DNA from: Octopus sinensis
Lineage: Eukaryota
Assembly: GCF_006345805.1 (NCBI RefSeq)
Contig: NW_021825095.1
Coordinates: 1 to 16,627 of the forward strand
DNA: 16,627 nt
Reading direction: 5' to 3'
The translations under genes and the position numbers were made by a program. Below, in pieces: positions 1 to 16,627 of the stretch. Within the stretch, counting starts at the first letter, position 1. Each line of letters opens with the position of its first letter. A model generated the notes under the pieces. That model did no database searches. It was not told the DNA's origin and was given only the letters and a program-made list of their open reading frames with translations.

Positions 1-201
1 AAGAATGAAATGTATTGATTGTCTTATTGAACAAATGAATATGAAAATTAAATATTAAATGCCTATTCTCATGAACTAGTTTACTTCTTGCATTTTAAGC
101 ATTATCAGGTTCAGATTGTATGCTCATGTTAAATATATTTTATATTCAATATGGATTAACATAGAATCAATCGAATTTAGAGAGTTCTTGAAGTCGGTGA
201 G

Positions 202-415
202 TGGTTAGCTGGTAGAAACGTTAGCACGCCGGGTGAAGTACTTAGCGGTATTTCGTCTAACTTTACGTTTTGAGTTTAAATTCCACCGAGGTCGACTTTG
301 CCTTTCATCCTTTCGGGTCAATAAATTAAGTACTGGGTGCGTACTGGGGTTGATCTAGTTTACTGGGGCCCCTCGCCAAAATTTTCGGGCCTTGTACCTA
401 GAGTAGAAAAGAATT
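202..415 (+). mobile_element. tRNA-derived SINE, family A (monomeric copy)
   Basis: Aligns by eye with 10238-10635: agctggtagaaacgttagcacgccggg head, B-box-like gagtttaaattcc, gaggtcgactttgcctttcatcctttcggg core, aaattttcgggccttg tail. Confidence 0.85.
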
Positions 416-444
416 CAGAGGAGTTCGATTTGTGGTAGTTAAAC

Positions 445-666
445 AGTGTTTGTTGTGTGTTGAGTTTTGTTGTTTTTTGTTTTTGTCCCCATATCAATCC
501 TATGTTGGATATCATTCGACCCATAACCAACCTGTTCCTCTCTTGGGCATTGCATATCTCGGTTGACATTATCAAATGTGTCCTTTCCTTCTTAAAACGA
601 CTGGGTGTATGTTCAGGGATATTTCATTGCTATTTCTAGTAAGTCGAGTGACTACGTATAGACGCA
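445..666 (-). mobile_element. Diverged interspersed repeat, family C (SINE-like, AAC-rich tail)
   Basis: Reverse complement (acgtagtcactcgacttactagaaatagcaa...) is similar to 4446-4668 and 4688-4790 and ends in an aac-rich tail. Confidence 0.65.
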
Positions 667-1150
667 TTGTATTTTCGACTCTAATAAATGTGTTTTGAAA
701 TCTTCAAACTATTTTTTATCTTTATAGGTAATTTAATCTGGACTGAACATATCTAATAATACTTGTTTACTTTTGGAGTTTAAAACGAGTATTTCTCCAC
801 TTAATTCACAAATCTAACATTAACACGACATTTCTTTTTTTATTCTTTCTCAAGAAGCACGAACAAAATTCAGATTGGTAACCAGGTTTAAAAAAAAACA
901 ACTGTCTGCATATCGATTATTATTTGTTTTCTCAAGAAGAAACCATCCATCAAACAAACGTGAGAGAAAGATATGAACTGGCTAGAAGGCGAATCGGAAT
1001 TTGAGGCAGTTTCTGATAGCATGTTTCTTAATAAATGATATTTTCTTGAAGGCAATCTAATAGTTGCATGAGAACATAAGAATTACAATTCCAGACGTGG
1101 CGACAAAAATATGCTTTTACATTTTGCAAAACCAGACGTACATACAGTTT

Positions 1151-1308
1151 TGTGGCTAAGTGGTTCGCTTTGCAACCACGTGTCTTCGTGTTCAGTCCAA
1201 CGGCGCAGTACTCTGGTCAAGTGTCTTCAACTATAGCCCCGGGGTCGGGAGATATCTTGTGAATTAATTTGGTATACGGATACTGTGTTGAAGCCGTAGT
1301 GTGTATAC
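1151..1308 (+). mobile_element. Old 5' half of tRNA-derived SINE family B
   Basis: tgtggctaag...gttcagtcc...caagtgtcttcaactatagcc is colinear with 7140-7290. Confidence 0.7.
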
Positions 1309-1385
1309 AAACATACATACCTATATATATCTAATACTTCGTTTTTTTTTAATTTGGCTTGCAAGATTCTTGATGTGAATTGGTG

Positions 1386-1428
1386 TATAGATAGAAAGAT
1401 AAAGAGATAGATAGATATTTAGACAGAC

Positions 1429-1487
<59 letters not shown>
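1386..1487. repeat. (GATA)n microsatellite
   Basis: Tandem agat/agac units read directly. Confidence 0.95.
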
Positions 1488-1521
1488 AGGATGAAACGAT
1501 ATCATACATGGCTACTGTTAT

Positions 1522-1631
1522 GATAATGATAATAATCCTTTCTAATATAGGCCTGAAATCTGTAGGAGGGGGACAGTCAATTACATCGACACCAGTACAC
1601 AACTGGTACTTATTTTATCGACCGCGAAAGG
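1522..1631 (-). mobile_element. 3' fragment of SINE family A
   Basis: Reverse complement cctttcgcggtcgataaaataagtaccagttgtgtactggtgtcgat matches 10531-10577; att-type tail. Confidence 0.75.
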
Positions 1632-1849
1632 TTCGAAGGCACCATATGATGCTCCATATCGTATGCCTACTTAAAGTCAATCCAAGCCATAGACATATTT
1701 GTATGATGTTCTTTACAATGCCTCAAAGAGAGCGCCAGCCTTGACAGCGGCTGGACGTGTTCCTCGCTGCTCTGACCAATCAGCAGTCGAAGACATAGAA
1801 ACATCAATACAACTCAGCAGGACAACAGAAAAATAACTCTCAAAGACTG

Positions 1850-2345
1850 GAATATCTACAATTTTCTGTGAACATTTTAGATTTCCCTCAAAATAAGTTA
1901 AGAAACTTACATATCTACAGTTTTCGAACACACAAACGATCAGCTTAAAAAACTTTAATATCTACAACTTCTGTGAATACCTATCCTTTCCTTTCTCCCT
2001 GAGTATTCGAAAATGTAAACATCCTTTTTATTCTAAGAAGACTATAGTTTTCTCTTTTCGGACATACAAAAGATCATCTTTAGTAAATTTTAAAATTTTA
2101 ATCTCTACAATTTTCTGTGAAAATTTTACCCTCCTCTTTTTTTCTTTCTTCTCTCCCTGAGTATTCGAAAATGTAAACATCCTTTTTATTGCAAAAACAC
2201 TATTGTCTTCTTTAACTGGACATACAAAAGAACATCTCTAGAAAACTTTAAAACTTTAATATCTACAATTTTGTATGACAATTTTATCTTTCTTTTCTCC
2301 CTGGCTACCCGAATTTGTAAACATGCCTTTTATTGCAACAACACA
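1850..2345. repeat. Diverged minisatellite, ~145-160 bp unit, about 3.5 copies
   Basis: ctccctgagtattcgaaaatgtaaacatcctttttatt is identical at 1995 and 2153 with a diverged copy at 2297; aatatctacaa-like motifs recur at ~1852, 1957, 2100, 2258. Confidence 0.85.
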
Positions 2346-2484
2346 ATTAAATGCACGATAAAAAAAAATTAAGGAGCTAACCACCTGCCAATATATACAA
2401 ACGGTACAATTACAAAAACTGTAAACCACAGCAAAACTTATAAAAAGAAAGGGAAGGAAAAAAATTCAACGATGTGAACATTAG

Positions 2485-2505
2485 TATATATATATATATA
2501 TACAC

Positions 2506-2548
<43 letters not shown>

Positions 2549-2560
2549 GATAGAGAGGGA
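2485..2560. repeat. (TA)n(GA)n compound microsatellite
   Basis: Read directly. Confidence 0.95.
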
Positions 2561-2715
2561 GAGAACAAAGTGAATTGCTTCTTTTCAAGGCCAAGGTCAA
2601 TGTTCTCACTGATCGCTCGGAGTAGTAAACACATTTGACCTCCGCTGATCCAAAGGGTGTGAGGCCTCATTTGTCTCCTCTCGCACAGTAACGTCTATTG
2701 CTGACCTCTTCACCA

Positions 2716-2717
2716 TG

Positions 2718-2764
<47 letters not shown>

Positions 2765-2800
2765 GGTGGTGGTTGTAGTTGTTGTAGTAGTAGTAGTAGT
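2716..2800. repeat. (GGT)/(AGT) trinucleotide microsatellite
   Basis: Read directly; explains the poly-V and poly-T ORFs. Confidence 0.95.
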
Positions 2801-3393
2801 CATGTCACTGAATACCGTAGCACATTTTCTGACAGTAATAATGTCTGTTAAAACCATCTTCAGGTTTTTACTTTCTTCAACTGAAGTTTTCAGGTCTCGT
2901 TGGGAGCTTAAAATGCCAGAAAAAGAAACGAAGAAGACCGCATCGTAAACGTGAATTATTCACTGTCTCAAACTACAAACATGCATGATGCATTTAAAAA
3001 ACCTTATACATAAGGTTTTCAATTGCATCATATATATTATACGATGATGATTCGTAAGTCAAGATGAATCCGTTAAGTGGATGCATGTAATATTTGGTAA
3101 AGGATGAAGGAAAGCGAAAGCGAAATGAATAGAGACATGTGTACTTATGCTTTGAGAATAACAGAGAGGGACTTAAGAAGAAAAGTTTAAATGACAGATA
3201 TTTCAGGAACATCATTATTGATGATGATATTACGCATCTGTAAAAGATCGATCGACGTTGCCTGCTTTTCAGCTGCCAAGTAAAATAGACTGTAAATATG
3301 GTTACATCTCAATGCAGTCTTTTAACTGAAGAACTTGTCGAAGACAATTCTTTCCACGGTGGTTACATTTAGCGTTTGTTTTTTTGTTTTTTT

Positions 3394-3701
3394 TTACTTG
3401 CTTCAGTCATTGGACTGTGGCCATGCTGGAGCACCGCTTTGAAGGGTTTTAGTCGGGGGGAAAAACCTGCCCATCCCCGTACCTGTTTTCCTTTTTTTTA
3501 TGTATGGTACTTATTCTGTCTGTCTCTTTCAGTGAACCGCTAGGTCCTGAGGAGGTAGACAAAACAACACCAGTAGTTAAGCATTGTTGAGATACGCACT
3601 CACACATACACACATACGCAGCACACACATACGCACACATATTCACACACCTATATATATATGTGTGTGTATGTGTATATATATGCGTGTGTGTATATAT
3701 A

Positions 3702-3732
<31 letters not shown>

Positions 3733-4203
3733 GTATATATATATATGTATACAGGGGTTGGACAAAATAATGGAAACACCTTAAAATTTCAAACAAATTA
3801 TTTTAATATAGGGTAGGACTATCTTAGGCAGTAATTACAACTTGAATTCTACGAGGTATGGACTCGTACAAAATCTGAATTGTTTCCAAAGGAATTTTTG
3901 TCCATTCTTCAGCTAAAACAGTCTCCAGTTCTTGTAGTGATGATGGTGGAGGATATCGACTCCTTACTTGTTTTTCTAAAATGCTCATTAAATGTTCAAT
4001 AATATTGAAATCTGGGGACTGTGGTGGCCAGATAAGATGTATATATACGACGGGCTTCCACGCAGTTTCCGTCTACCAAACACTCACGAGACATTGGTTG
4101 ACCCGGGTTTACAGTATAAGACTGTTAGTTAAGGTGCCGTGCAGTGGGACTGAACCCGAAATCGCGTGGTTGCAAAGCGAGCTTCCTAACTACATAGCAT
4201 GAC
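3394..4203 (-). mobile_element. SINE family B, diverged, interrupted by a Tc1 fragment in its internal microsatellite
   Basis: 3394-3590 matches the 3' half (gactgtggccatgctggagcaccgc) and 4040-4203 the 5' half (gcagtgggactgaaccc) of 7127-7534 in reverse. Confidence 0.8.
3752..4039 (-). mobile_element. Tc1-family DNA transposon remnant: one TIR plus transposase C-terminus (pseudogenised)
   Basis: TA|CAGGGGTTGGACAAAATAATGGAAACACC terminus. Minus frame 4039-3803 reads HLIWPPQSPDFNIIEHLMSILEKQVRSRYPPPSSLQELETVLAEEWTKIPLETIQILYESIPRRIQVVITA*DSPTLY*, containing the Tc1 WPxxSPDLNxIE-type motif and one in-frame stop. Confidence 0.92.
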
Positions 4204-4445
4204 CATTTGTTTGTTTATTTTTTGAGAAGGGGGTGTTTTTGTTTTTGTTTTTTTTTTGTTTGTTTATTTTTCGTTTGTTATGTTTTGTTTTTTTGCAGCG
4301 AAATTCTTCCATTGTTCAGCCATTTTTATTGTTGTGAAAGAGTAAATAATAAGTTGTTCTGATCCCTGGTTTCTTCTAATGTTATCGATTTCTGTGATTA
4401 AGTATTGATTTCTTACATACCACTACTGCCTAATAATATAACAAA

Positions 4446-4668
4446 TCAATGAAGGAGCCTCTACGTCGACGCTCGATCTGCTAGAAATAACAGCCAAATA
4501 TCTCTCAAATCACTCCCTACTGTCTTATAAAAGGAAATACATGCTGAATGGAGTAATTCTAGATACACTATGCCAGAAAAGGAAGGCGAGATGGTCACGG
4601 TTAGAAATCTTCGATCAAAGGTCTTCTCGATTAGGACTGATCCAAGGTAAAACAATAACATCAACAAG
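4446..4668 (+). mobile_element. Interspersed repeat family C copy
   Basis: ctcgatctgctagaaataacagccaaatatctctcaaatcac motif shared with 4713-4750 and reverse of 610-655; aac-rich tail. Confidence 0.65.
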
Positions 4669-4687
4669 ATCTAATATCTCTATGAGT

Positions 4688-4826
4688 CACTGAAGAAGCC
4701 TTTACGTGGTCACTCGACCTGCTAGGAATAGCAACCAAATTCCCCTCAAATTATACTTTACTATATTTAGAAAGTAAAGAATTACGTTGGATACTTTACT
4801 ATATTTAGAAAGTAAAGAACTACGTT
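4688..4826 (+). mobile_element. Truncated family C copy ending in a 38-bp-period tandem duplication
   Basis: cactcgacctgctaggaatagcaaccaaat motif; atactttactatatttagaaagtaaagaa(t/c)tacgtt at 4753 and 4791. Confidence 0.65.
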
Positions 4827-4999
4827 CCAAGTTTAAATTTGGGCATTCGTCGTGTGTGAATATAGAATTGAAGAGATTGGAGTCAAGAAGAAGAGGTACG
4901 GTTGGACATTTATCTATTATTCACTATAATTGTTTCGACGCAACGTGGTTCTCCAGGAACAAAGTATTTGATTATGCAACTGTTTGTTTGCATAATGAG

Positions 5000-5292
5000 A
5001 TCTTGTGTTTCCTCAGGCGATATACGTGTGTTGTCTCCGTTAGTTTAAAATCGTCGATTTCACGGCTATCTTCTCTTTTCGTTGTGGTTTGAATTTAGTA
5101 GCGGCTAAATGCCAGCCAGCACCATTTATTACCATTCATAACAGTCCGACAAATGCGATCTTGTGGCACACACCATGGGTCTATCAGCCGATACTAAATT
5201 CAAACCACGGCGAACAGAGACGATGGCCTTGAAGTCGACGATTTTAAACTAACGGAGACAACACTCGTATATCACCTGACGAAACACTAGAT
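5000..5292. mobile_element. Foldback/MITE-like element with ~110-bp imperfect inverted arms
   Basis: 5000-5110 is the reverse complement of 5181-5292 (e.g. gtgttgtctccgttagtttaaaatcgtcga / tcgacgattttaaactaacggagacaacac); ~70-bp spacer; no clear TSD. Confidence 0.8.
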
Positions 5293-5604
5293 TATATTAA
5301 ATATAATCACCTACTTAAATGATATTGAGATCTACTTTTGTTGTTACACACGTGGTTTGTCGGTATATGTGTGTGAGGGGGAGGCTGTGAGTGTGGTGTG
5401 TGTGTGTGTGTGTGTGTGTTATAATAAAAACAATTTTACATTAACTTGAAGGTTTACTCAATACATTTTGTCGAGTACAAATTTATTATTCTTTAATAAG
5501 AATAGTACTGACAGTAACTTCGAAGTTTCTGTCTGTTTAGCTATATATATCACGTAGATTTGAGAAAGATTACGGCAGCCATTAGATTCCTTTTCTGTCT
5601 TTTT

Positions 5605-5725
5605 TAAAATATAAATAAAAAATAAAAATAAAATAAATAATAAAAAAATATAAATAAATAAATAAAAATAATAAATAAAATAAAATAAAAAAATTAAATT
5701 AAAATAAAAAATAAATAAAAATACA
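5605..5725. repeat. A-rich (AAATA)-like low-complexity tract
   Basis: Read directly. Confidence 0.9.
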
Positions 5726-5944
5726 AAGTAGTATTTCGAATCAGAACCACTGAGGGTCCAGGCCTATAATGGACATGGTTCAGTCCCTGAGCAAGGTCCG
5801 AGATGCCAATAAGAAGCCCATGAACATTTCACAGGCCAATTTCTATCCAAATTATCACAGCTTTATTGCAGCCCGAAGATTAGTCTTGTTCCGCTTGGCA
5901 ACAATTCTCTTGAAGACTCTGCAGAGAACTGTATTTGCCAGTTG

Positions 5945-5958
5945 GTTGCTATGGAAAC
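5945..5958. promoter_or_regulatory. Candidate RFX X-box motif GTTGCTATGGAAAC
   Basis: Fits the 14-bp imperfect palindromic X-box consensus and lies in a non-repeat island with CCAAT boxes at 5806 and 5836; function unshown. Confidence 0.35.
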
Positions 5959-6825
5959 CAGGATAATAACACACATAAAACTCCTTCACCGTGGACACGG
6001 CGTTGCAACAGTTGCTGTTGTTGATGTTGTTTTTGTTATTGTTCTTCTTCTTCTTTTTCTTAAATACAATCGTTTTTTTTTTTTAATCTAATAAATGATG
6101 TAATAATATCACCGTTTATATGTTACACATTGTCTTTATTAAGAACGAAATCATGCGGTATAACTTCTGATGTCTTATGACAAATTTTCAACACTAAGCA
6201 GCTCTGTATATGTATGATTTATAATCTTTTTCTTGTAACATTTTATAACATTTTCCAATGATTTACAACCCCCAGTTTTTTGGTTTTTCTCAAATAGAGA
6301 ACAACAGTTAGCCGAAGTAATTGAGTATCGGCTTCCTTTTGGTGCCTGCTCGGTTGTTATGCTTTGTATGTTTTATGTTTAACACGTATGCCTTATTTGA
6401 GTTTGCTATGCTAATATTACTTTTAAAAACAAAAACAAACTTATTGACAGGTTTTATTAAAATATTTCCCCGAAAAACAACAAGAATCCTAAACAGCAAA
6501 TTGTTTTAACCAATAACAAAAATGCTAACACAGGAACGTATTCTAGCGAGTGATTCGATCGGTATTCGGTTGTTTAATTAAAACTGTTGCCCAGTGAGGG
6601 ACGTCAGGGAACGATCGTTACTCTAGCGTGTAACAAATGAAGCGAAGATGAGAGAGGCGAGGGAGAGGGAATGGGGGGGGGGGGATGTAGAAAACTCATA
6701 TTGTTTGTTGTGGCATACAAACAATCAATAAATACTTACTGCAGTAAAATCCATGATTGCAATAACACGAATGGAAGTTGTGTGATAGGAGAATGTGGTT
6801 TTAATAGTACTGATGGTTCTTTAAC

Positions 6826-6880
6826 ACTTTTGCTGATTTCAGCGACTGGACTGCGGCCATGCTGGAACACTGCCTTCAAG
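6826..6880 (-). mobile_element. Short 3' fragment of SINE family B
   Basis: gactgcggccatgctggaacactgcctt matches the reverse of 7476-7503. Confidence 0.65.
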
Positions 6881-7033
6881 AGCGCCATGTCGGCACTCAG
6901 TACTATTTAATTGATTTCTATTTATCGAAGTGCTTGGGTTATGGGACATAGAAAGGCACGTTATAAACAAAACATCGGTTTTCATTGTAGGATAAGGCAA
7001 GAGCACACACATACATGTAATACACACAAGCAC

Positions 7034-7069
<36 letters not shown>

Positions 7070-7126
7070 TTCATTGTTCAGTTTTATTTCAAGATTTCTT
7101 GCCAATACAGAAAGAGCCGGTTTCTA

Positions 7127-7534
7127 GGCGTAGGAGTGGCTGTGTGGTAAGTAGCTTGCTAACCAGCGACATGGTTCCGGGTTCAGTCCCACTGCGTGGC
7201 ATCTTGGGCAAGTGTCTTCTGCTATAGCCTCGGGCCGACCAAAGCCTTGTGAGTGGATTTGGTAGACGGAAACTGAAAGAAGCCTGTCGTATATATGTAT
7301 ATTTATATGTGTGTGTGTGTGTATGTTTGTGTGTCTGTGTTTGTCCCCCTAGCATTGCTTGACAACCGATGCTGGTGTGTTTACGTCCCCGTCACTTAGC
7401 GGTTCGGCAAAAGAGACCGATAGAATAAGTACTGGGCTTACAAAGAATAAGTCCCGGGGTCGAGTTGCTCGACTAAAGGCGGGGCTCCAGCATGGCCGCA
7501 GTCAAATGACTGAAACATGTAAAGAGTAAAGAGT
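7127..7534 (+). mobile_element. Full-length tRNA-derived SINE family B
   Basis: A box tggctgtgtgg, B box ggttcagtccc, internal (TG)n, (taaagag)2 tail; several homologous copies in the window. Confidence 0.9.
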
Positions 7535-7563
7535 TCCTTCATTGGAATTTCATCAACAACATC

Positions 7564-7746
7564 CGTTCAAGAATTTGAACCTGGAGATCTCCATTTCCAG
7601 CGACTTCGAGGGCCACCTCCCAGTGGTGTCGGGCGTCAACGAAGAGCCCTCGACTACAACAAAACGACCAAAGTTGTTTTTTTTCCAAGGTCTGGGGTCA
7701 CCTAGACCATCACCTAATCACCCTTACCCGTCTTGTTGCTTAACAA
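7564..7746 (+). mobile_element. Small retroposed insert with short (AAC)n tail and 10-bp TSD
   Basis: caacaacatc at 7554-7563 and 7747-7756; absent from the paralogous site in 8256-8357; hairpin ggtctggg/cctagacc near the 3' end. Confidence 0.65.
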
Positions 7747-8255
7747 CAACAACATCAACAACAGGGTATGTATGTATGTATGTATGTATGTATGTATCTA
7801 TGTATGTATATGTGCACTTTTGCATGTTTTGCTTTATGCATGTATTCTCATGCATATAGTTGCATATCTAGACACGCTCATATATATTTAAATGCTGAAC
7901 TCCTGGAAAGTTTTGCAGATTTTTACAGTTCCAGTGATGGATTCGATCTGTAGTCTTCGAATTAGCTTTCTCCTTTCTGGTTTTGAGCAGCCTAATTTCT
8001 CAAGATTAGTATTTAGGCAGTGTGTTACATATCCCAGAGCCCCAATAATTACAGGTATAAACTTGAACTTATAATCTGGATAGAGTAACTGCAGAATACT
8101 TAATAGTTCAGCATAGATGTTCTCTTTTCCACTGATCTTCAGCTTTATGTTAACATCCGCTGGGCAGTTGATTTCCACAACTGTGTAGTTTCTCTTCTCT
8201 ATCCCAAATCATTATACCAGGTCTGTTTTGTATGTATATATGTATGTATGTATGT

Positions 8256-8357
8256 CATTATTCAGTTTATTTCAAGATTTCTTGCCAATAGAGAAAGAAC
8301 CGGTTTCTAACCTAGATCCAAGACTCCTTCATTGGAATTTCAACATCAACAACAGGG
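8256..8357 (-). mobile_element. 3' terminus of a second copy of the same R4/Dong-like family, followed by a (CATA)n tract at 8230-8255
   Basis: Near-identical to 7068-7126 joined to 7535-7560 and 7750-7766. Confidence 0.7.
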
Positions 8358-8389
8358 AATTTTTGTATGCCTGTATGTATTATATGCAG

Positions 8390-8753
8390 GATAGCCACAT
8401 AACTGGTCTTAGAAAGTTTTGTAGGTTCCCCGCTACGTCTGCGTGTTAGAATCAAGCGACAATGTTTGGTGTCGTACGTTAAGGCTGACGCGGTTGACTG
8501 AACAAATCAAAATATACTATCACGTGACGCTAACGCATGGACGTAGCAGGAAACGTACAAAGGGTTATAAACTTGATCACGTGTTCATTCTCTACAAACA
8601 CTTGACAGGAAACATTCAGAGCATTGATTGTTTGGACTTGTTCAGTCAACCGTGTCAGCCTTAACTTACGACGCCAAACATTGTCACTTGATACTAAAAC
8701 ACAGACGTAGCGGGGTACCTATAAAATTTTTTCAGATCAGTCATGTGACTATC
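8390..8753. mobile_element. Foldback/MITE-like element with ~125-bp imperfect inverted arms
   Basis: 8390-8513 is the reverse complement of ~8628-8753 (e.g. ccccgctacgtctg / cagacgtagcgggg; cggttgactgaacaa / ttgttcagtcaaccg). Confidence 0.85.
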
Positions 8754-9223
8754 TTCTACCTATAAAATCCTATTCAAAACATACTAATTTGAGCCATGAA
8801 CTCCCTATAAAAATAGGGCAAAACTTCAAACACTAGTCAGAAGCGAGACAGCTGCGACATAAGCCACGTTTTTCTATTTCAACTTTTTGAAAATCAGTGT
8901 AAACTATGAAACCGGTTAAATATTCAAACAATTTAATAAAAAAATAATTTAACTATTTTCAGTGCATTTTCAACTTTTATTTTACCTTTATTTCTAACTC
9001 GTGTGGAATAAAATATCTTTGTTTTCTTTATACATATATAGATAGATAGATCGTTAGCCACTACACACATTTTTTTCTCTCCTTGTTTTTTTCTGTGTCC
9101 CTTTCTGTAGAAGAGCGAAGGCTCGAATCGTAAAAGACTTTTTCTACTCCTGAGCGTTATACTAATACATCTGTTTGTTTTGTACACCACCTGTCTTCGT
9201 CTTGTGTTTTTTTCGTAAACTCT

Positions 9224-9226
<3 letters not shown>

Positions 9227-9292
<66 letters not shown>

Positions 9293-9359
9293 ATATTGTT
9301 CACAGACTTAGAATATTTAATAATGAGCTCCTAGTCTCTCACTCTCTCTCTCTCTCTCT

Positions 9360-9394
<35 letters not shown>
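9227..9394. repeat. Two (TA)n tracts plus (CT)n
   Basis: Read directly. Confidence 0.9.
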
Positions 9395-9395
<1 letters not shown>

Positions 9396-9911
9396 TAGCA
9401 GTATCGCCCGGCGTTGCTCGGGTGTAAGGGAAGTAACTATATAAGCATTTTTAGAGAGTTACTTCCTTTATAGATGCCAATTCGGGCTTTCTTGGCCATT
9501 TCTGTTTTGGTGTCTTCAAGTCATTAAGTCGTTGTTCTAAAAGAACGCTGGTCTCCTTGACAACGCATTACGACGTTGATTTCCTTAAACTCCCTTCCCC
9601 ACAGCTTCACGAGGGAGGGAAGAAGGGGGAGAAGCAAACACAGGTGCAGGTGTTTGAGCGTGGACGCCAACTCCGCCGCCATCGACACACGAAAAATTAT
9701 GCATTAAAATGGAATAAAAAAAATGATGTTAAATTATTTTTTAAATCGTAGACTCATCGTAGACGCGCGCTAATAGCCAGATGGGTTTGATATTAATCAC
9801 GACTATAAGATACCCGAATTTGGTTAAACTGCACCGCAAAATGTGGGAGGAGTTAGGAATCTAAATCGTAGGAGACAGACACTCACACAACTACAGTTTT
9901 ATATATATAGA
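9395..9911 (-). mobile_element. Non-autonomous Helitron
   Basis: Minus strand starts A|TCTATATATATAAAA and ends with GC hairpin cccgagcaacgccggg (9407-9422), 8 nt, then CTAG|T; A/T insertion site with no TSD. The 5' end could also be 9921 because the terminal motif repeats. Confidence 0.88.
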
Positions 9912-10186
9912 TATATATAGATATATAGAGAGAGAGAGGAGGAGGAGGAAGAGACACGTGTGTCCGTGTGTGTGTGTGTGTGTGCGTGTGTGTGTTTGTG
10001 TATGGTGATAAGAGAGAAATGTGGTGGAAGGGAGAGAGAGAGAACAGAACACAATACTAAAATATGATCAGAGCAATTAACGACATTGTCGTATAGTAAT
10101 GGCTCTAACTCAAGAAAACATACACCATAATTCTGGTCTACAAAAACCATTGTACTTTCTATTAAACAAACAAATAATAAATATAC

Positions 10187-10187
<1 letters not shown>

Positions 10188-10222
<35 letters not shown>

Positions 10223-10237
10223 AATAATAATAATAAT
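10188..10237. repeat. (ATC)n(AAT)n microsatellite
   Basis: Read directly; explains the poly-M ORF. Confidence 0.95.
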
Positions 10238-10634
10238 GGCGGCGAGCTGGCAGAAGCGTTAGCACGCCGGGCGAAATGCGTAGCCGTATTTCGCCTGGCG
10301 TTACGTTCTGAGTTCAAATTCCGCCGAGGTCGACTTTGCCTTTCATCCTTTCGGGGTCGATAAATTAAGGACCAGTTACGCACTGGGGTCAATATAATCG
10401 ACTTAACCCCGTTGTCTGTCCTTTTTTGTCCCCTCTGTGTTTGGCCCTTTGTAGGTAGTAAAGAAATAGGTATTTCGTCTATCTTTACGTTCTAAGTTCA
10501 AATTCCGCGGAGGTCGACTTTACCTTTCATCCTTTCGGGATCGATAAATTAAGTACCAGTTGTGTACTGGGGTCGATCTAATCGACTGGCCCCCTTCCTC
10601 AAAAATTTCGGGCCTTGTGCCTAAAGTAGTAAAG

Positions 10635-10635
<1 letters not shown>
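10238..10635 (+). mobile_element. Full-length dimeric tRNA-derived SINE family A
   Basis: A box tggcagaagcg, B box gagttcaaattcc; the core is repeated from 10469; ends in (ATT)n. Confidence 0.9.
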
Positions 10636-10687
<52 letters not shown>

Positions 10688-10741
10688 CATTATTATTATT
10701 ATTATTTTATTATTATTATATTATTATTATTATTATTATTA
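10635..10741. repeat. (ATT)n tract shared by the SINE 3' end and the opposite-strand LINE 3' end
   Basis: Read directly. Confidence 0.95.
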
Positions 10742-11257
10742 GTATTTTTCATTGTTTTTGTACAGCTTCTAACGCTGGAGATGTACTACGGTGTCAGCTG
10801 TTCACTACCAGTGAACTAAGGTAACACCCCTTATTTTTCGAGCACCTTCCGGAGTATTCGAACAGTCCGAAGCAGTGCTGTTTTATGCAAATGCTCCACT
10901 CTTAATGCAGCCCCTATTTGTTCCACGTACTTCTCAAGATATGTTATTCACTTTTCTCAGCACTCCGACAATTTTCAGCGACCACAATTGCTTAACCTCC
11001 CAAGCTAACTTGCTATATCTATCGACTTTTCTTTCTTCCTTATCGTATACCTTGTTGTCAGCTGGACATGCCATATCTATGATCCAGCATCGTTTGCTTT
11101 CTTTCTCCTTTAAGACTATGTCTGGTTTACTATTCTCTATCTAATGGTCCCACTGAATCATAAAATCCCATAAGATCTTTGCATTATCATCTTCGATGAT
11201 TCGTTCGGGTTTATGTTCGTACCACTTTTTTGCTCTGTCAAGTCCATACTTGTTGCA
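10742..11257 (-). mobile_element. 5'-truncated R4/Dong-like LINE, RLE domain pseudogene (fragment 1)
   Basis: Minus strand reads CNKYGLDRAKKWYEHKPERIIEDDNAKILWDFMIQWDH*IENSKPDIVLKEKESKRCWIIDMACPADNKVYDKEERKVDRYSKLAWEVKQLW.../HLEKYVEQIG...LHKTALLRTVRILRKVLEK* (stop 10831-10833), then a ~90-nt UTR and (TAA)n. Confidence 0.92.
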
Positions 11258-11260
11258 ACG

Positions 11261-11760
11261 TCGCACAGTATACAATATCGTGAGGTCGTTGATTGAAGAT
11301 ATTGTGTGTACCGTGGGTTTGCACTGTTGGTCAATTCACGACAAGGACCTCAGACAGACAGCACTTTACGCAATATGCGTACAATTTTAAGTAATGCCGA
11401 CTTTTGCAATACACCTAGATTGTTGGGTATTTCTAAAGTTTCCAGATGTTCTGGGTTTTTTTTCAGATTGGGTGGTATTGAACCCAATGATCCGATGACA
11501 ATAGGGACAACCTTTACGCTTGACTCTCGTAGCTGCTACAGCTTAGCGATATCAATTCTCAGGTCTCCATATTTGTCAATCTTTTCTCTTTCTTTCATGA
11601 TAAGTTTATCTCTTGGCACTACCATGTCAAATATTAGGTACTCTTGTTTGTCGCTCCTAAAGGTTACTATGTCTGGCCTTCGGTGCTCTAACACCTTGTC
11701 TGTGTGGAAGTCAAAGTCTCAGAGGATTTTTACCTTCCCCTTTTCGTCCGTTACCTTTTT
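11261..11760 (-). mobile_element. 5'-truncated R4/Dong-like LINE, RLE domain pseudogene (fragment 2)
   Basis: Minus strand reads KVKIL*DFDFHTDKVLEHRRPDIVTFRSDKQEYLIFDMVVPRDKLIMKEREKIDKYGDLRIDIAKL*QLRESSVKVVPIVIGSLGSIP...LQKSALLKIVRILRKVLSV* (stop 11350-11352). Confidence 0.92.
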
Positions 11761-11801
11761 CAGTGTTGTTATTGCTATTATCATTATTATTATTATTATC
11801 A

Positions 11802-11980
11802 TTCAGTAGTTTTATTTTTATAGCATGCTTTCACTTCACTACCGAGCGCAGCTCTGTGTGCCTTGGTATGTGCTGTGATTTGTTGTGATGCTCTGATGGT
11901 TATTGTATGGAAAGTGTTCTGCGTAGGATGTGTGCAGTGCCTAGTAGTGCAATTTTCTGTATGTTATATGTGTTTGTAAG

Positions 11981-11981
<1 letters not shown>
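11802..11981 (-). mobile_element. Extreme 3' end of an R4/Dong-like LINE (fragment 3) between (TAA)n tracts
   Basis: Minus strand reads LTNTYNIQKIALLGTAHILRRTLSIQ* (stop 11900-11902), homologous to the C-termini of fragments 1 and 2; att tracts at 11777-11801 and 11982-12036. Confidence 0.85.
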
Positions 11982-12036
<55 letters not shown>

Positions 12037-12047
12037 CTCTCTCGTTA

Positions 12048-12250
12048 TACTCTTTTACTTGTTTCAGCTATTTGACTGCGGCCATGCTGGAGCACCGCCT
12101 TTAGTCGAGCAAATCGACCCCAGGACTTATTCTTTGTAAGCCTAGTGCTTATTCTCTTTTGCCGGACCGCCAAGTTACGGGGACGCAAACACACCAGCAT
12201 TGGTAGTCAAGCGATGATGGGGGGGACAAACACAGACACACAAACACACA

Positions 12251-12289
<39 letters not shown>

Positions 12290-12354
12290 ACACACACATA
12301 TATATATATATACATACATACATACATACATACATACATACATACATACATACA

Positions 12355-12388
<34 letters not shown>

Positions 12389-12525
12389 CGATGGGCTTCT
12401 TTCAGTTCCGTCTACCAGATCTACTCACAAGGCTTGGTCGGCCCGAGGCTATAGTAGAAGACACTTGCCCAAGGTGCCACGCAGTGGGACTGAACCCGGA
12501 ACCATGTGGTTCGTAAGCAATCTTC
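12048..12525 (-). mobile_element. SINE family B with expanded internal (CA)/(TA)/(CATA) microsatellite
   Basis: Close reverse-complement match to 7150-7534. Confidence 0.9.
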
Positions 12526-12532
12526 CTGTGCC

Positions 12533-12547
12533 TATTATTATTATTAT

Positions 12548-12595
<48 letters not shown>
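12533..12595. repeat. (ATT)n(AGT)n microsatellite
   Basis: Read directly. Confidence 0.95.
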
Positions 12596-13072
12596 AATTC
12601 CTAAACAATCCTCCTTTTGCTTTTGCTTTTCACTTGTTATATTTTTATTTTCGTTTATTTGTTGATACGTTTTTTGAGTTTTTGGGGTTTTTTTCCTATT
12701 CTTTGTCATTTTGTGCGTTTGTGTTTTTTCTTTTTTTTTTTGGCTCTGCCAAAAACAATGTGACATCACTCAATGTATGTTTTGTTTTTTTTTCTCTATA
12801 TGCCCCTCCCTCTTACTCTTCCATTGTCATTTTTATTAAATCGTTTCAGCCATTCATAACAAGATGTTTTGGTGGAGGGAGGGGGGAGTAATTGTTTTTG
12901 TTCTTTTGTTTTTTATTGTCAGTTTTTTTTTTTGTCATTGTCCGACCTCAGAGCATCTCAAACAAAACAATCGCCATTCCACTTCGCTGCTTCTTCCCCG
13001 CTCCACACCACAACACTTTTGTATTCAATGGCAATGTCTTGTAGAAATTTGTATGTGTATGTGTTTGTGTGT

Positions 13073-13758
13073 GGAGGCGCAATGGTCCAGTGGTTAGGGC
13101 AGCGGACTCGGGATCGGAGGATCGCGGTTTCGATTCACAGACCGGGCGTTGTGTGTGTTTATTGAGCGAAAACATCTAAAGCTCCACGATGATCCGGCAG
13201 AGGGTGGTGGCGACCCTCTAGAAAAACGCCGCCGCCGTGGTGATCTCATTCTCGCCCACAACATCATAAGCGGAAAGTGTAACCTCTCGAAAGAGCTGTT
13301 CTTCACTCCTGCTCCAGAGCGTCGGCTGCGGGGTCATTCCGAAAAGCTCTACCTGCGACGATTTCATCTCAATCGAAGGAGAGGAGCTTTCTCCGTCCGG
13401 GTTGCGGATCCATGGAACAAGCTGCCAGACGAGATAGTGAAGATGCTGACGACCGCTTTGTTCAAAGCCTCCCTTGACCTCAAGTGGCCTGAACTCTTTA
13501 CATGAACACCACCCTGTACTTAACTCCATGTCCCCCTACATGGCCTTGCTATTTGCTTTTGAGCCAAATTAACTAACTAACTAACTAACTAACTACTCTT
13601 TCGCCCCAACTTTCTCTCACTCTTTCTTCCTGTTTCTTGAATAACGCTGCGATGGACTGGCGTCCCGTCCAGCCGGGGGAAACACATACGCCATAGAAAC
13701 CGGGAAACCGGGCCCATGAGCCTGGCAAGGCTTGAAAAGGGCGCATAAATAAATAAAT
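13073..13758 (+). mobile_element. tRNA-derived SINE family D, split by a CR1-like fragment
   Basis: A box tggtccagtgg, B-box-like gtttcgattc; body resumes at ~13595 with gcgatggactggcgtcccgtccag...agaaaccgg, which resembles a conserved SINE central domain (Meta/V-type, from recall); (taaa)n tail. Confidence 0.75.
13218..13595 (+). mobile_element. 5'-truncated CR1-group LINE: ORF2 C-terminus, 3' UTR and (TAAC)n tail
   Basis: LEKRRRRGDLI...LRGHSEKL...RRGAFSVRVADPWNKLP...* (stop ends 13505) is the typical CR1 ORF2 terminal motif; tail at 13570-13595. Confidence 0.9.
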
Positions 13759-13834
13759 GTGTTCGTGTGTGTGTGTGCACGCGTGTATGTTTACAGTGTT
13801 TTCTTCATAATCTAACCGAACAAGTGGTGGTTTG

Positions 13835-14140
13835 TTGCCAACTTAATGTGGCAGACCCAAGAAAGGGAAGAATGCTACTACTATTTAGCCCCAAGAAACA
13901 CTATTTTTAGTTGGCTACGTGACACAAGCGATTCAAACAGGGGAGATAAGCACATTTCACCCAACAAAGCCAGCATTCAGAGACTAGTTTCAAGGTAGTT
14001 GCCCTTCTTCAGTCTGGAGTAGCTTGGCGATCTCAGTAATATCTTGTCTTCCATATTGAATTATTTATGCTAATGTTATTATTGGAGTAAAGATTTTTGC
14101 CAACATAACATGGCAGTCCTGGTTTAGGATGAATGTTATG
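13835..14140 (-). mobile_element. ~262-bp terminally redundant non-coding unit (retrozyme or Penelope pseudo-LTR-like)
   Basis: Diverged ~45-bp direct repeat ttgccaac...tggcag...gaatg(c/t)ta at 13835 and 14097 brackets a hammerhead motif. Confidence 0.55.
13976..14018 (-). ncRNA. Minimal type I hammerhead ribozyme motif
   Basis: Minus RNA: UCCAGA CUGAAGA AGGG-CAACUA-CCUU GAAA CUAG UC^UCUGAA. CUGANGA, GAAA and the GUC site are intact, with stem I CAGA/UCUG, stem II AGGG/CCUU and palindromic stem III ACUAGU. Confidence 0.75.
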
Positions 14141-14154
14141 TTGGTAGTTATGTT

Positions 14155-14505
14155 AGGTAGTGGTGGTGGTGGTGGTGGTGGTTGTGGTGATGGCGGCGGC
14201 GGTAGTGGTGATGGCGGCGGCGGTAGTGGTGCTGATGCTGGTGATGATTTTGGTGATGGTGGTGGTGCTGCTGCTGCTAGTGATGGTGTTGATGTTCTTA
14301 TTGTTGTTGGTAGTGGTGATAATGATGGTGGTGGTGGTTTTGGTGGTAGTCTTGGTGGTGGAGATGGAAGTGGCGGTGGTTTCAGTGGTGGTGGTGTTTT
14401 TGATGTTTGTTGTCGATGATGTTGATGTTGATGCTATTATCGTCGACGTTGTCGATGTTGTTCGCGTTGATATTTTTGGTCGTGTTATTGTTGTTGATGT
14501 TGCTG
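14155..14505. repeat. Degenerate (GGT)/(GAT)/(GTT) trinucleotide low-complexity tract
   Basis: Read directly; produces Gly-, Val- and Thr-rich ORFs in three frames. Confidence 0.9.
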
Positions 14506-14511
14506 TCACTG

Positions 14512-14808
14512 AAGGTGCATTGGCTTAGTGGTTAAGATATTCGGCTCACGGTCGTAAGGTCGTCAGTTCGATTCCCGACGACGTGTTATGTCCTTGAACA
14601 AGGTACTTTATTCCACGTTGCTCCAGCTGGTAAAAATGAACTGTACCTGTTAATCGAAGTGCCAACTTCTTCACATTTTGCGTCATGGTTAATCTCCTTG
14701 GTAACTGCCTTAAAGGTACGTGCGCCCGTGGAGTACTCAGCCACTTGCATGTCAATTTCACGAGCAAACTGTTCCGTTAATCAGATCAACTGAGATTTCA
14801 TGAGAACC
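14512..14808 (+). mobile_element. tRNA-derived SINE family E (diverged)
   Basis: A box tggcttagtgg (14521), B box gttcgattccc (14566), then tgtccttgaacaaggtacttta, a CORE-like motif common after SINE tRNA heads. Confidence 0.75.
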
Positions 14809-14811
14809 CAA

Positions 14812-15227
14812 GGATCTTTTCGCTTTGAACGGCAGTTTTTTCTAGCGGTGTCATATGAAATTGTCACCCATAATTATGACTCTAGTATCGATCTATTGCA
14901 TTTCAATCTGTTTTAGGGTTAGGGTGGGTGGGGGAGGGTATCTTTTTTTCTTCAGAAATGTAAATAAACCCAATCTGTTTCTTAAACGAGGGACATATTC
15001 ATACGCCCAGAATGTTTTTTTTTTACCTCAATAGACGTAATTGATTGGTTGAAATTGCAGAAATTGAAGAAAGAAAAACAACAAATATGTTACAGACTAT
15101 AGAATTTTCTCAATAAAGCCAAGAGAAAAAGATGTTTTATAAACACATTCTACCAGTATACGAAGTTTAAAAGTGTTTAGTTACGTGGAAATTATTTTAA
15201 AAACTGCCGTTCAAACCGAAAAGATCC
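14812..15227. mobile_element. MITE with 29-bp TIRs and 8-bp TSD (possibly Merlin superfamily)
   Basis: TIR ggatcttttcg(c/g)tttgaacggcagttttt with one mismatch; TSD gaacccaa at 14804-14811 and 15228-15235. Confidence 0.92.
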
Positions 15228-15420
15228 GAACCCAATCAGATTCAAAAACCAATTACGATTGTTCATCATTGTTTTCAGTCTGCGGAGAAATGGCTAAATG
15301 TATATACACGAGAGGCTTCTTCCAGTTTCCGTCTACCAAATCCACTCACAAGGCTATAGTAGAAGACACTTGCCATGCAGTGGAACAGAACCCTGGACCT
15401 TGTGGTTGGTAAGCAAGCTA

Positions 15421-16350
15421 ATTCATTTCATAAATATTTGCCATGAAGGCATTACAAAGAGGGGACGAACAAGAACAGACATATTCGTTCGAAATAAATT
15501 TATACACAATTTAATCCCAGAAAATGGGAAACCTATAATTTTTACTTTTTTTCCTCTCAACGAGGACAACAGTTCAAATCCCACCCCCGCTGAGGGGCGA
15601 GACTTAGCAACAAAACCTACAACGTTCGAAATTAATTTTTCACACAGTAATAAATATACATTATTAAATCTCAGAGCGAGATGTAAACAGTAACCGCTCG
15701 ACAATGTAAAGTATAAAAGCCATCTCAATATGGCTAACCAAGGGCACTGAAAGGGTGTCTAGAGCCAGCTGGAGACGATGATCTCCTGGGGCTAAAAAGC
15801 TACAGTAACACCCCCACTTTGTGGTTAGCCATATTGAGATGGCTTTTATACTTTACAATAAATATACAGTATCCCCAAAACGGGAAACCTATAATATTTT
15901 TTTTCTCACAACGAGGACAAGAGTTCAAATCTCGCCCACGCTAGGGGCGGATGCCACAATAGAGCCTACAACGGCTAAAATTTAATTTTTCACACAATAA
16001 TAAATTGCTTATCCCAAAAAACGGGAAACCTATAATATTTTTTTTTCCTCTTAATGAGAATAACAGTTCAAATCCCACCCTCGCTGGGTGGTGGGGGCAC
16101 GACAATAAAGCCTACAATGGCTTTAATAAGTTCAATATTAATATTATTAATAATTTCAATATTTCAACAATTACTTTCTCCCGTCACCGGGAAAAGGCAC
16201 AAAAATTTTCGAAGTTCAACAATGTTCAACAGTTCGAAAATATTAAACAATAAACAACAATTCCAATAGAAAATTTTTCCAACGTTCAACAAAACGTTTG
16301 ACTCACCGCTAAAAACAACACGTCTATCCACGACAGAGGTGAGCGAACTA
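15421..16350. mobile_element. ~930-bp non-coding insertion with three ~141-148-bp internal repeats
   Basis: Boundaries defined by the split SINE; gggaaacctataat at 15526, 15882 and 16023. Confidence 0.7.
15705..15857. repeat. Perfect 36-bp inverted repeat with 81-bp spacer (mini-MITE-like)
   Basis: tgtaaagtataaaagccatctcaatatggctaacca (15705-15740) and its exact reverse complement (15822-15857). Confidence 0.9.
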
Positions 16351-16627
16351 TTTACCACACAGCCACTCCTGTACTATTGTTCTTTCTGGTCTTGCTTATT
16401 GTTATTCTTGTTGTTATTGCTGGGCTAAATATGGCTATTTTGATCTAATCCTGCTTCTATTGCATATAACGAATTTTTATTCAACCGGGTGAATCATTTA
16501 CGTCTGCTACCGGAATATATTTGTGTTTTAAATCATTGTACGTCGACAAGAGATATTATCCCCGGACGAACCTCATGGTTAATTTGCGTTTACGCGATGT
16601 ATTTGCATTAAGTATGATATACAAATG

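What the first reader, a model, noticed from the sequence alone, without database searches (positions are those of the whole stretch)
13835..14140. Hammerhead sits in a ~262-bp terminally redundant unit: candidate cephalopod retrozyme
Seen: a diverged ~45-nt direct repeat at 13835 and 14097 (offset 262), each copy keeping a tgcca-N8-tggca hairpin although the loop differs; no ORF. Known: reverse transcription of small circular or tandem hammerhead RNAs leaves slightly more than one unit, and non-LTR retrozyme monomers are a few hundred nt. Inference: a circularly permuted monomer of a non-autonomous ribozyme-bearing retroelement, or a solo Penelope pseudo-LTR.
Basis: partly seen in the sequence, partly recalled or inferred. 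Interest (0 to 1): 0.75.

Follow-up and report, generated by a model that had tools for sequence, protein, structure and literature searches.

The report
Two retrozyme fragments mimic one unit
The apparent 262-base unit is two broken pieces of two related, very abundant non-coding jumping repeats lying side by side; their real unit is about 350 bases, carries a predicted self-cutting RNA motif and is likely copied by Penelope-type enzymes, a known kind of element (retrozyme).

Summary
The direct repeat (30 of 44 columns identical), both hairpins and a hammerhead motif (minus strand, core 14012-13982) are real. The 262-bp monomer is not. Window 13822-14028 is a 5'-truncated piece of family A (2,705 first-look candidates; real monomer 332-358 nt). 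Window 14082-14137 is the first 56 nt of sister family B (56/56 identical to a B copy, 38 identities to an A copy). A younger third family, C, also exists; the three are about 67% alike. All three wrap head to tail, have no ORF, and fold far better than shuffles. They carry Penelope-type insertion marks: two fixed 3' ends 42-60 nt apart, AT-rich targets and back-to-back arms. None was found as the terminal repeat of a Penelope ORF (80 ORF-bearing stretches examined). Cleavage and circles are untested, and the RNA data were inconclusive. Side result: a 1.7-1.95-kb element with a CCHC knuckle inserts just upstream of the hammerhead (23 of 30 copies). This scan has reported octopus retrozymes with these marks, and that second element, many times on other DNA. 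Verdict: new member of a known kind; this locus is a dead fragment.

The parts
13822..14028 (-). 5'-truncated copy of retrozyme-like family A (monomer positions m1-m219 of about 353 nt). Its 3' end is at the family's main fixed end m1. It is 93.5% identical to the family majority and has a 16-nt deletion near 13930.
13969..14028 (-). Type I hammerhead motif. Extended helix I 14028-14013 pairs with 13981-13969; core CUGAAGA 14012-14006; 4-bp helix II with 6-nt loop; GAAA 13991-13988; 2-bp palindromic helix III. Predicted cleavage after GUC, between 13982 and 13981. One helix-I pair is lost in this copy. The copy's 5' truncation falls at the outer edge of the extended helix I.
   Evidence: cleavage is predicted, not tested
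13836..13853 (-). 5-bp/8-nt hairpin near the 3' end of family A, 14 nt before the fixed end m1. It is kept in A, B and C with different loops and is a candidate recognition or initiation signal for the reverse transcriptase (inferred).
   Evidence: the 5 stem pairs are formed in 93-100% of 41 A arms and 90-100% of 30 B arms, and the equivalent 5 pairs in 97-100% of 62 C arms; arms were picked by likeness to the motif, so these shares lean high
14029..14081 (.). 53-nt AT-rich spacer that does not continue family A. Its weak likeness to family B m256-296 is borderline (22 of 500 shuffles reach the score). Likely host DNA or a much older relic.
14082..14137 (-). First 56 nt (3' end) of sister family B, without a hammerhead. 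Likely a separate insertion behind ATTA. An 8-nt direct repeat (14072-14079 and 14132-14139) may be a target-site duplication.
14098..14115 (-).

Best explanation
The stretch is two truncated pieces, 53 bases apart and likely inserted separately, of two sister families of about 353-nt non-coding tandem repeats that carry a predicted hammerhead ribozyme and are likely copied into the genome by Penelope-like (PLE) reverse transcriptase/endonuclease enzymes (animal non-LTR retrozymes). Shown: family membership of each piece, monomer length, head-to-tail wrap, no ORF, family-specific helix I pairing, two fixed 3' ends, AT/TA-rich targets and back-to-back arms. Inferred mechanism: (1) a locus with two or more units is transcribed from the minus strand. 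(2) Two hammerheads pair through their palindromic helix III and cut out a monomer of about 353 nt, which likely circularises. (3) A PLE protein binds near the conserved hairpin, nicks AT-rich DNA and starts reverse transcription inside the RNA at one of two fixed sites (m1, or about m295 in A; m300 in B; m312 in C). When both nicked strands prime, one arm starts at each site. (4) Copying stops at scattered points or runs past one full round. The window holds a one-armed 207-nt A product with a single hammerhead, which would have no partner in cis, and a 56-nt B product. The locus is therefore likely an inert relic.
For: Composite: as in the observation check. Monomer: L023 gives 353 nt and 7 other A copies give 332-358 nt; B is 353 nt and C is 352 nt, with pairwise identity 0.67. 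Wrap: 38 of 49 independent A loci cross the m353/m1 junction (a biased sample, see against), and 3 of 49 span two hammerhead positions in tandem. Tandem pairs with both cores intact are L108 (A), L047 (B), L294 and L315 (C), out of 11 loci checked. The longest ATG ORF in the monomers is 20-35 aa. Apart from microsatellites and common repeats, the only recurrent flank shared at junctions is the site-specific insert, not a PLE ORF. Hammerhead: core intact in 18 of 27 A copies; helix I pairs at 0.88-0.95 within a family and 0.23-0.72 across families. Circular fold z is -5.3 (A), -6.4 (B) and -6.9 (C) against 40 shuffles; A antisense is -1.3. PLE marks: 3' ends at the two sites in 33 of 42 A segments and at m1-2 or m311-312 in 33 of 43 C segments. 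Flanks are (TA)n or AT-rich. Of 55 two-armed joints, 37 have one arm at each site, 1 has both at the same site, and 17 have an end at neither (C counted by hand). This matches the two internal start sites, the tail and the AT-rich cleavage shown in vitro for an anole PLE (PMC11167929, parts 1-2 of 4 read), and the inverted 5' copies and 30-40-bp tails described for PLEs (PMC8557442, passages). The genome has PLE ORFs: 5,029 GIY-YIG candidates, and an unbroken 775-aa RT+GIY-YIG frame in L087.
Against: No cleavage assay, no circle and no identified partner PLE. 5' ends show no pile-up at the predicted cleavage site m174 (0 of 42 A segments end at m170-178; 3 of 84 B segments do). This fits a circular or uncleaved template but gives no genomic trace of cleavage. 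The hammerheads lack the G10.1-C11.1 pair that PMC4209133 calls highly conserved (A-U in A, A.G in B), so activity may be weak. In a vertebrate survey only 1 of 9 tested retrozyme dimers cleaved in vitro (10.64898/2026.07.22.740005, part 3). B and C antisense strands also fold well (z -5.1, -6.3). All locus samples are the top 30-40 of 1,000-2,700 candidates. They probably favour loci that hold the query twice, and one A query spanned the wrap junction, so wrap, dimer and inversion shares are not genome frequencies. The spacer's borderline likeness to B (22 of 500) leaves room for a more tangled history of the locus.
Confidence: 0.78

Rival explanations
1. Families A and B are solo pseudo-LTRs or 5'-truncated ends of an autonomous Penelope-like element that was not sampled, or of one now extinct. 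The head-to-tail wrap is then ordinary PLE partial-tandem structure with no circular RNA stage.
For: All insertion marks are PLE marks. PLE ORF pieces abut family A in 2 of 49 loci (L137, L119), and one lies about 30 nt from a family-C copy (L297). Vertebrate retrozymes are homologous to PLE pLTRs (10.64898/2026.07.22.740005, part 3).
Against: Every copy that runs past m353 goes back into m1, never into ORF. A, B or C was not the terminal repeat in any of 30 GIY-YIG loci (one weak 72%/86-nt hit 1.4 kb away), 20 ten-kb PLE stretches (these partly overlap the 30; two copies found, one 2 kb off and one flanked by TA runs on both sides), or 29 further loci of a second PLE family. One sampled PLE family has its own unrelated hammerhead-like motif. 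PLE ORF pieces also occur in 2 of 20 arbitrary 10-kb stretches. The hammerhead has a 4-bp helix II, not the 7-8-bp helix II of the schistosome PLE minimal motifs (PMC4209133, passages).
Confidence: 0.14
2. One reading: 13835-14140 is one circularly permuted monomer of about 262 nt with terminal redundancy.
For: The direct repeat and both hairpins are real. The spacer has borderline likeness to the family in roughly the expected order.
Against: No other copy has this make-up (the only full match is the duplicate of the same locus at C1:197.635 Mb). The two repeats belong to different families. The real monomers are 332-358 nt. The 262-nt circle folds like shuffles (z +0.3).
Confidence: 0.03
3. 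The two pieces were joined in one reverse-transcription event by template switching between A RNA, an unrelated RNA and B RNA.
For: Both pieces lie in the same orientation and are only 53 nt apart. PLE ORF pieces directly abut A in L137, which could reflect template switching.
Against: The B piece begins at its own fixed start m1 behind ATTA, as other B insertions do, and has a possible 8-nt target duplication. B copies are more alike than A copies (about 88-96% against 80-90% in pairwise hits), so B likely spread later.
Confidence: 0.05

Closest known systems
Animal non-LTR retrozymes (Cervera and de la Pena 2020, PMC7229834: passages and Discussion read; Li, Clavereau and Pollet 2026, bioRxiv 10.64898/2026.07.22.740005: parts 1-3 of 5 read, i.e. 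all main text, supplements closed)
   Same: Type I hammerhead with a short palindromic helix III; non-coding monomer of about 350 nt; GC 0.38-0.42; monomers, dimers and fragments; occurs alongside PLEs.
   Different: Here the copies are mostly dispersed fragments and two-armed insertions of 0.2-2.5 units, not long arrays. PLE-type insertion ends can be read directly. Cleavage and circRNA are not shown. Cephalopods did not come up with retrozymes in my literature searches (searches returned a PLE paper and an LTR-element paper, seen as listing or passages). The 35-species list of the 2026 preprint is in a closed supplement; its text names only insects and one anthozoan as invertebrates.
Pseudo-LTRs of EN+ Penelope-like elements (PMC4209133 passages; PMC11167929 parts 1-2 of 4; PMC8557442 passages)
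   Same: Hammerhead upstream of two internal start sites that define a tail; AT-rich or (TA)n targets; 5' truncation; inverted 5' copies; partial tandems.
   Different: No ORF is attached and the unit wraps onto itself. The tail is 42-60 nt rather than 30-40. The hammerhead is canonical-like rather than minimal.
Target-specific Tx1-clade non-LTR retrotransposons (Tx1L in Tx1D, Tx1-Mar, Keno; PMC4494074 passages), for the side finding
   Same: Inserts at one position in another repeat, with a short target duplication and tandem re-insertion; gag-like CCHC knuckle.
   Different: The target is a hammerhead retrozyme. The copies seen are 1.7-1.95 kb with no RT or endonuclease ORF found, so the Tx1 label is a recalled resemblance and was not tested by phylogeny.

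Membership tests
Animal non-LTR retrozyme (families A/B/C as a whole) | Type I hammerhead motif in each unit | tested here: met
   Core intact in 18 of 27 A copies; family-specific helix I pairing. G10.1-C11.1 is replaced. Rfam gave no hit.
Animal non-LTR retrozyme (families A/B/C as a whole) | Head-to-tail monomers of a few hundred nt with low GC | tested here: met
   332-358 nt, GC 0.38-0.42, wrap at m353/m1.
Animal non-LTR retrozyme (families A/B/C as a whole) | No protein coding | tested here: met
   Longest ATG ORF 20-35 aa.
Animal non-LTR retrozyme (families A/B/C as a whole) | [quoted passage not shown] 2026) | tested here: met
   L108 (A), L047 (B), L294 and L315 (C), of 11 loci checked.
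Animal non-LTR retrozyme (this window's copy) | A complete monomer or tandem pair at this locus | tested here: not met
   207 nt of A with one hammerhead plus 56 nt of B without one.
Animal non-LTR retrozyme | Self-cleavage of the transcript | not testable with these tools
   Needs in vitro transcription. No genomic pile-up of 5' ends at the cleavage site.
Animal non-LTR retrozyme | Monomeric linear and circular RNA in tissues | tested here: inconclusive
   Only contig-level runs with guessed RNA status were available.
Penelope-like element pseudo-LTR | Joined to an RT + GIY-YIG ORF | tested here: not met
   0 of 30, 0 of 20 (partly overlapping) and 0 of 29 PLE stretches have A, B or C as terminal repeat; 2 of 49 A loci abut ORF pieces. 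PLE families were not sampled exhaustively.
Penelope-like element pseudo-LTR | Two fixed 3' ends (tail) | tested here: met
   33 of 42 A segments and 33 of 43 C segments; one arm at each site in 37 of 55 two-armed joints.
Penelope-like element pseudo-LTR | Inverted 5' segments and AT-rich or (TA)n targets | tested here: met
   16 of 49 A loci and 30 of 45 B loci with inversions (biased samples); flanks listed.
Tx1 clade (side finding) | APE + RT ORF2 that groups with Tx1 | tested here: inconclusive
   No ORF2 of its own was recognised in 20 long stretches or in the 6 examined frame by frame; only zf-CCHC. The RT and endonuclease pieces in L131 look like a nested LINE, judged by eye.

The most novel reading that the evidence does not exclude
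A three-tier parasite chain can be read from this genome. Penelope enzymes copy protein-free ribozyme circles of about 353 nt from two fixed start sites at once, one per nicked strand. A gag-only retroelement in turn lands almost exclusively just upstream of those circles' hammerhead, in the same orientation, borrowing the retrozyme's promoter for transcription and its ribozyme to define its own 3' end.
Probability: 0.25. Interest if true: 0.62.

Novelty: new member of a known kind. Interest (0 to 1): 0.3.

Why it matters
Their insertion ends give direct genomic support for the proposed link between retrozymes and Penelope enzymes, which has been argued mainly from co-occurrence and homology. 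The young family C (96-98% identity, intact dimers) is the practical handle for testing cleavage, circles and two-site priming. A retroelement that targets a retrozyme did not come up in my searches, though other notes of this scan report it.

Tried and rejected
Rfam: no hammerhead hit in the window or the 381-nt region; the motif was found by pattern and family alignment. RNA: no RNA holder was listed for the window stretch. Family A and B references laid on 6 contig-only runs with guessed RNA status (X1-X5, X18) show many short matching contigs and a few joints going back 347-352 nt; genomic dimers explain these equally well, so they count neither for nor against expression or circles. Pile-up of 5' ends at the cleavage site as a trace of in vivo cleavage: not seen. 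PLE enrichment near family A: ORF pieces within about 1.5 kb of 5 loci, against 3 pieces in 198 kb of arbitrary DNA, so not clearly enriched. L087 looked like a PLE with a family-like 5' repeat but is an independent family-C insertion between TA runs. The exact 31-nt hammerhead pattern gave only 9 genomic matches, 2 of them this locus and its duplicate, because family A is about 7% diverged; it is no copy number. In alignment A1 one row (L036) was in the wrong orientation, so it was not used for pair counts; pairing was counted by anchored parsing instead. In one search the family-C reference was cut wrongly; its C rows were discarded and redone, while its A/B and insert-end rows were used. 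The Atlas look-up for the CCHC ORF gave no result. Assembly artefact: the same composite stands at C1:197.635 Mb, which is likely the same locus assembled twice and so not an independent copy. Earlier-findings look-ups by sequence and by nearby place were empty.

Full report
Observation. The window is an AT-rich, microsatellite-laden animal contig. It is C1566 of a 2.72-Gb assembly and is nearly identical to C1:197.63 Mb. The hairpin occurs at 13836 and 14098. A type I hammerhead lies on the minus strand, core 14012-13982, with predicted cleavage between 13982 and 13981. Rfam missed it.

The unit is a composite. Searching the genome with 13835-14140 gave 2,705 candidates, of which 40 were scored; all 53 matches other than the window and its duplicate stop at or before window 14029. 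Those copies (family A) begin at window 13822 and continue with about 135 nt that the window lacks. They then return to their start, giving monomers of 332-358 nt. Searching with 14029-14140 gave 1,001 candidates that match essentially only 14082-14137, mostly at 95-100%. This is the first 56 nt of family B, a 353-nt monomer with its own hammerhead. Copy 1 is 54/58 identical to A and has 38 identities to B; copy 2 is 56/56 to B and has 38 to A. The repeat therefore reflects family homology (A:B 0.67), not redundancy of one insertion. The 53-nt spacer has only borderline likeness to the monomers (22 of 500 shuffles). The B piece sits behind ATTA, like other B copies, and has a possible 8-nt duplication. 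As a circle the 262-nt stretch folds like shuffles (z +0.3), whereas natural monomers give -5.3, -6.4 and -6.9.

The families. A third family, C (352 nt, 96-98% identity, 1,882 candidates), was found next to a PLE. The window's A copy is 93.5% identical to the family majority; 18 of 27 A copies keep the catalytic core. Helix I differs in sequence among families yet pairs within each (0.88-0.95, against 0.23-0.72 across families). Helix III is short and palindromic, and G10.1-C11.1 is replaced. By PMC4209133 (passages) such motifs work as dimers, so a lone copy would be inactive in cis (inferred). Of 49 independent A loci, 38 cross the monomer junction, 16 have inverted arms and 3 span two hammerhead positions. 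Intact tandem pairs exist in all three families. These shares come from top-ranked hits and overstate genome frequencies.

Insertion marks. 3' ends (RNA sense) fall at two sites: m1 or about m287-301 in 33 of 42 A segments, and m1-2 or m311-312 in 33 of 43 C segments. Flanks are (TA)n or AT-rich. Of 55 back-to-back joints, 37 have one arm at each site, 1 has the same site twice and 17 are unassignable. 5' ends are scattered, with no pile-up at the cleavage site. An anole PLE protein cleaves both strands at AT-rich DNA, is predicted to be a dimer and initiates at two internal sites that define the genomic tail (PMC11167929). PLE insertions often carry inverted 5' copies and tails (PMC8557442).

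ORF linkage. The genome is rich in PLEs: 5,029 GIY-YIG candidates, 17,222 candidates for a second family, and RT+GIY-YIG frames of 775-781 aa. A, B or C was not the terminal repeat in 30 loci, 20 longer stretches (partly overlapping those) or 29 loci of the second family. ORF pieces abut A in 2 of 49 loci, and arbitrary DNA holds such pieces in 2 of 20 ten-kb stretches. The partner PLE is not identified.

Side finding. Many A and B copies are split near m209-236, just upstream of helix I, by one element. Searching with its 5' end gave 76 candidates. Of 30 loci, 23 abut A or B (one is the query; four were already in my A/B sets). By eye, 4 more follow the 3' end of another copy of the same element, 1 follows a related sequence and 2 are 5'-truncated. 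Both halves of the retrozyme flank inserts of 1.7-1.95 kb in 7 loci. Target duplications of 9-17 bp were read in 3 loci. It lies in the hammerhead's sense orientation and encodes a CCHC knuckle (weak), with no RT found. Tx1-clade elements are known to target other repeats (PMC4494074); the clade label here is from recall. My searches found no paper on a retrozyme target.

RNA. The RNA data were inconclusive; see Tried and rejected.

Comparison and verdict. The families meet the sequence criteria for animal non-LTR retrozymes (PMC7229834; bioRxiv 10.64898/2026.07.22.740005) and show the PLE mechanics that those papers propose. Cleavage and circles are untested. The window's own copy is not a complete unit. 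This scan already holds many reports of octopus retrozymes with two-armed Penelope-type ends, including a young 352-bp family and a second element landing in them (218 notes fit the look-up words). Those notes prompted my count of paired ends; the rest was found before I read them. New member of a known kind; interest 0.3.

Noticed in passing
window 15665-15843: A further two-armed (fold-back) fragment of the same hammerhead-repeat superfamily, 76-82% like family C and B, without the hammerhead part.
   Followed up: partly
L131 773-5646; L132 819-2765; L133 742-1237; L261-L290; L321-L340: A 1.7-1.95-kb CCHC-knuckle element inserted site-specifically just upstream of the hammerhead in families A and B (23 of 30 loci), with 9-17-bp target duplications and apparent tandem re-insertion.
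   Followed up: yes
L087 7436-7772; L292-L320: Family C: young (96-98%), 352-nt monomer, intact dimers, very sharp ends at m1-2 and m311-312 in (TA)n. It is the best candidate for activity tests.
   Followed up: yes
L137 720-2715; L119 436-1648: 5'-truncated PLE ORF pieces directly abut family A copies, co-oriented in L137 and head to head in L119. This could be template switching or nested insertion.
   Followed up: partly
L207 1160-2554: Family B array of five 160-nt sub-monomer repeats (m2-m162) that stop just short of the hammerhead cleavage site.
   Followed up: no
L087 4245-6569 (-); L083 3032-5374 (+): Unbroken PLE frames of 775-781 aa with RT and GIY-YIG. L083 has an upstream 479-aa frame. 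The L087 family has its own hammerhead-like motif about 460-500 nt after the stop codon.
   Followed up: partly
window 1-16627: The contig matches C1:197.63 Mb at 98.7-100% in the part compared; it is likely an unplaced duplicate (haplotig).
   Followed up: partly
window 3827-4072 (-): Fragment of a DDE transposase (Pfam DDE_3, E 5e-5, below cut-off).
   Followed up: partly
window 7891-8208 (-), 10937-11718 (-), 13098-13502 (+): Frames that look like decayed non-LTR retrotransposon ends (recalled resemblance); no Pfam hit.
   Followed up: partly
window 8390-8753 and 4993-5299: Long inverted repeats (123- and 114-nt arms, 86-87% complementary). No hammerhead core was found in them by my scan; they may be MITE-like or arms of other families.
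   Followed up: partly
window 4671-4746 (+): Weak Rfam match to the CPEB3 (HDV-like) ribozyme, E 0.2, below the gathering score.
   Followed up: no
L143 2703-8111 (-): 1,803-aa open frame without any Pfam match, 2 kb from a family A copy.
   Followed up: no
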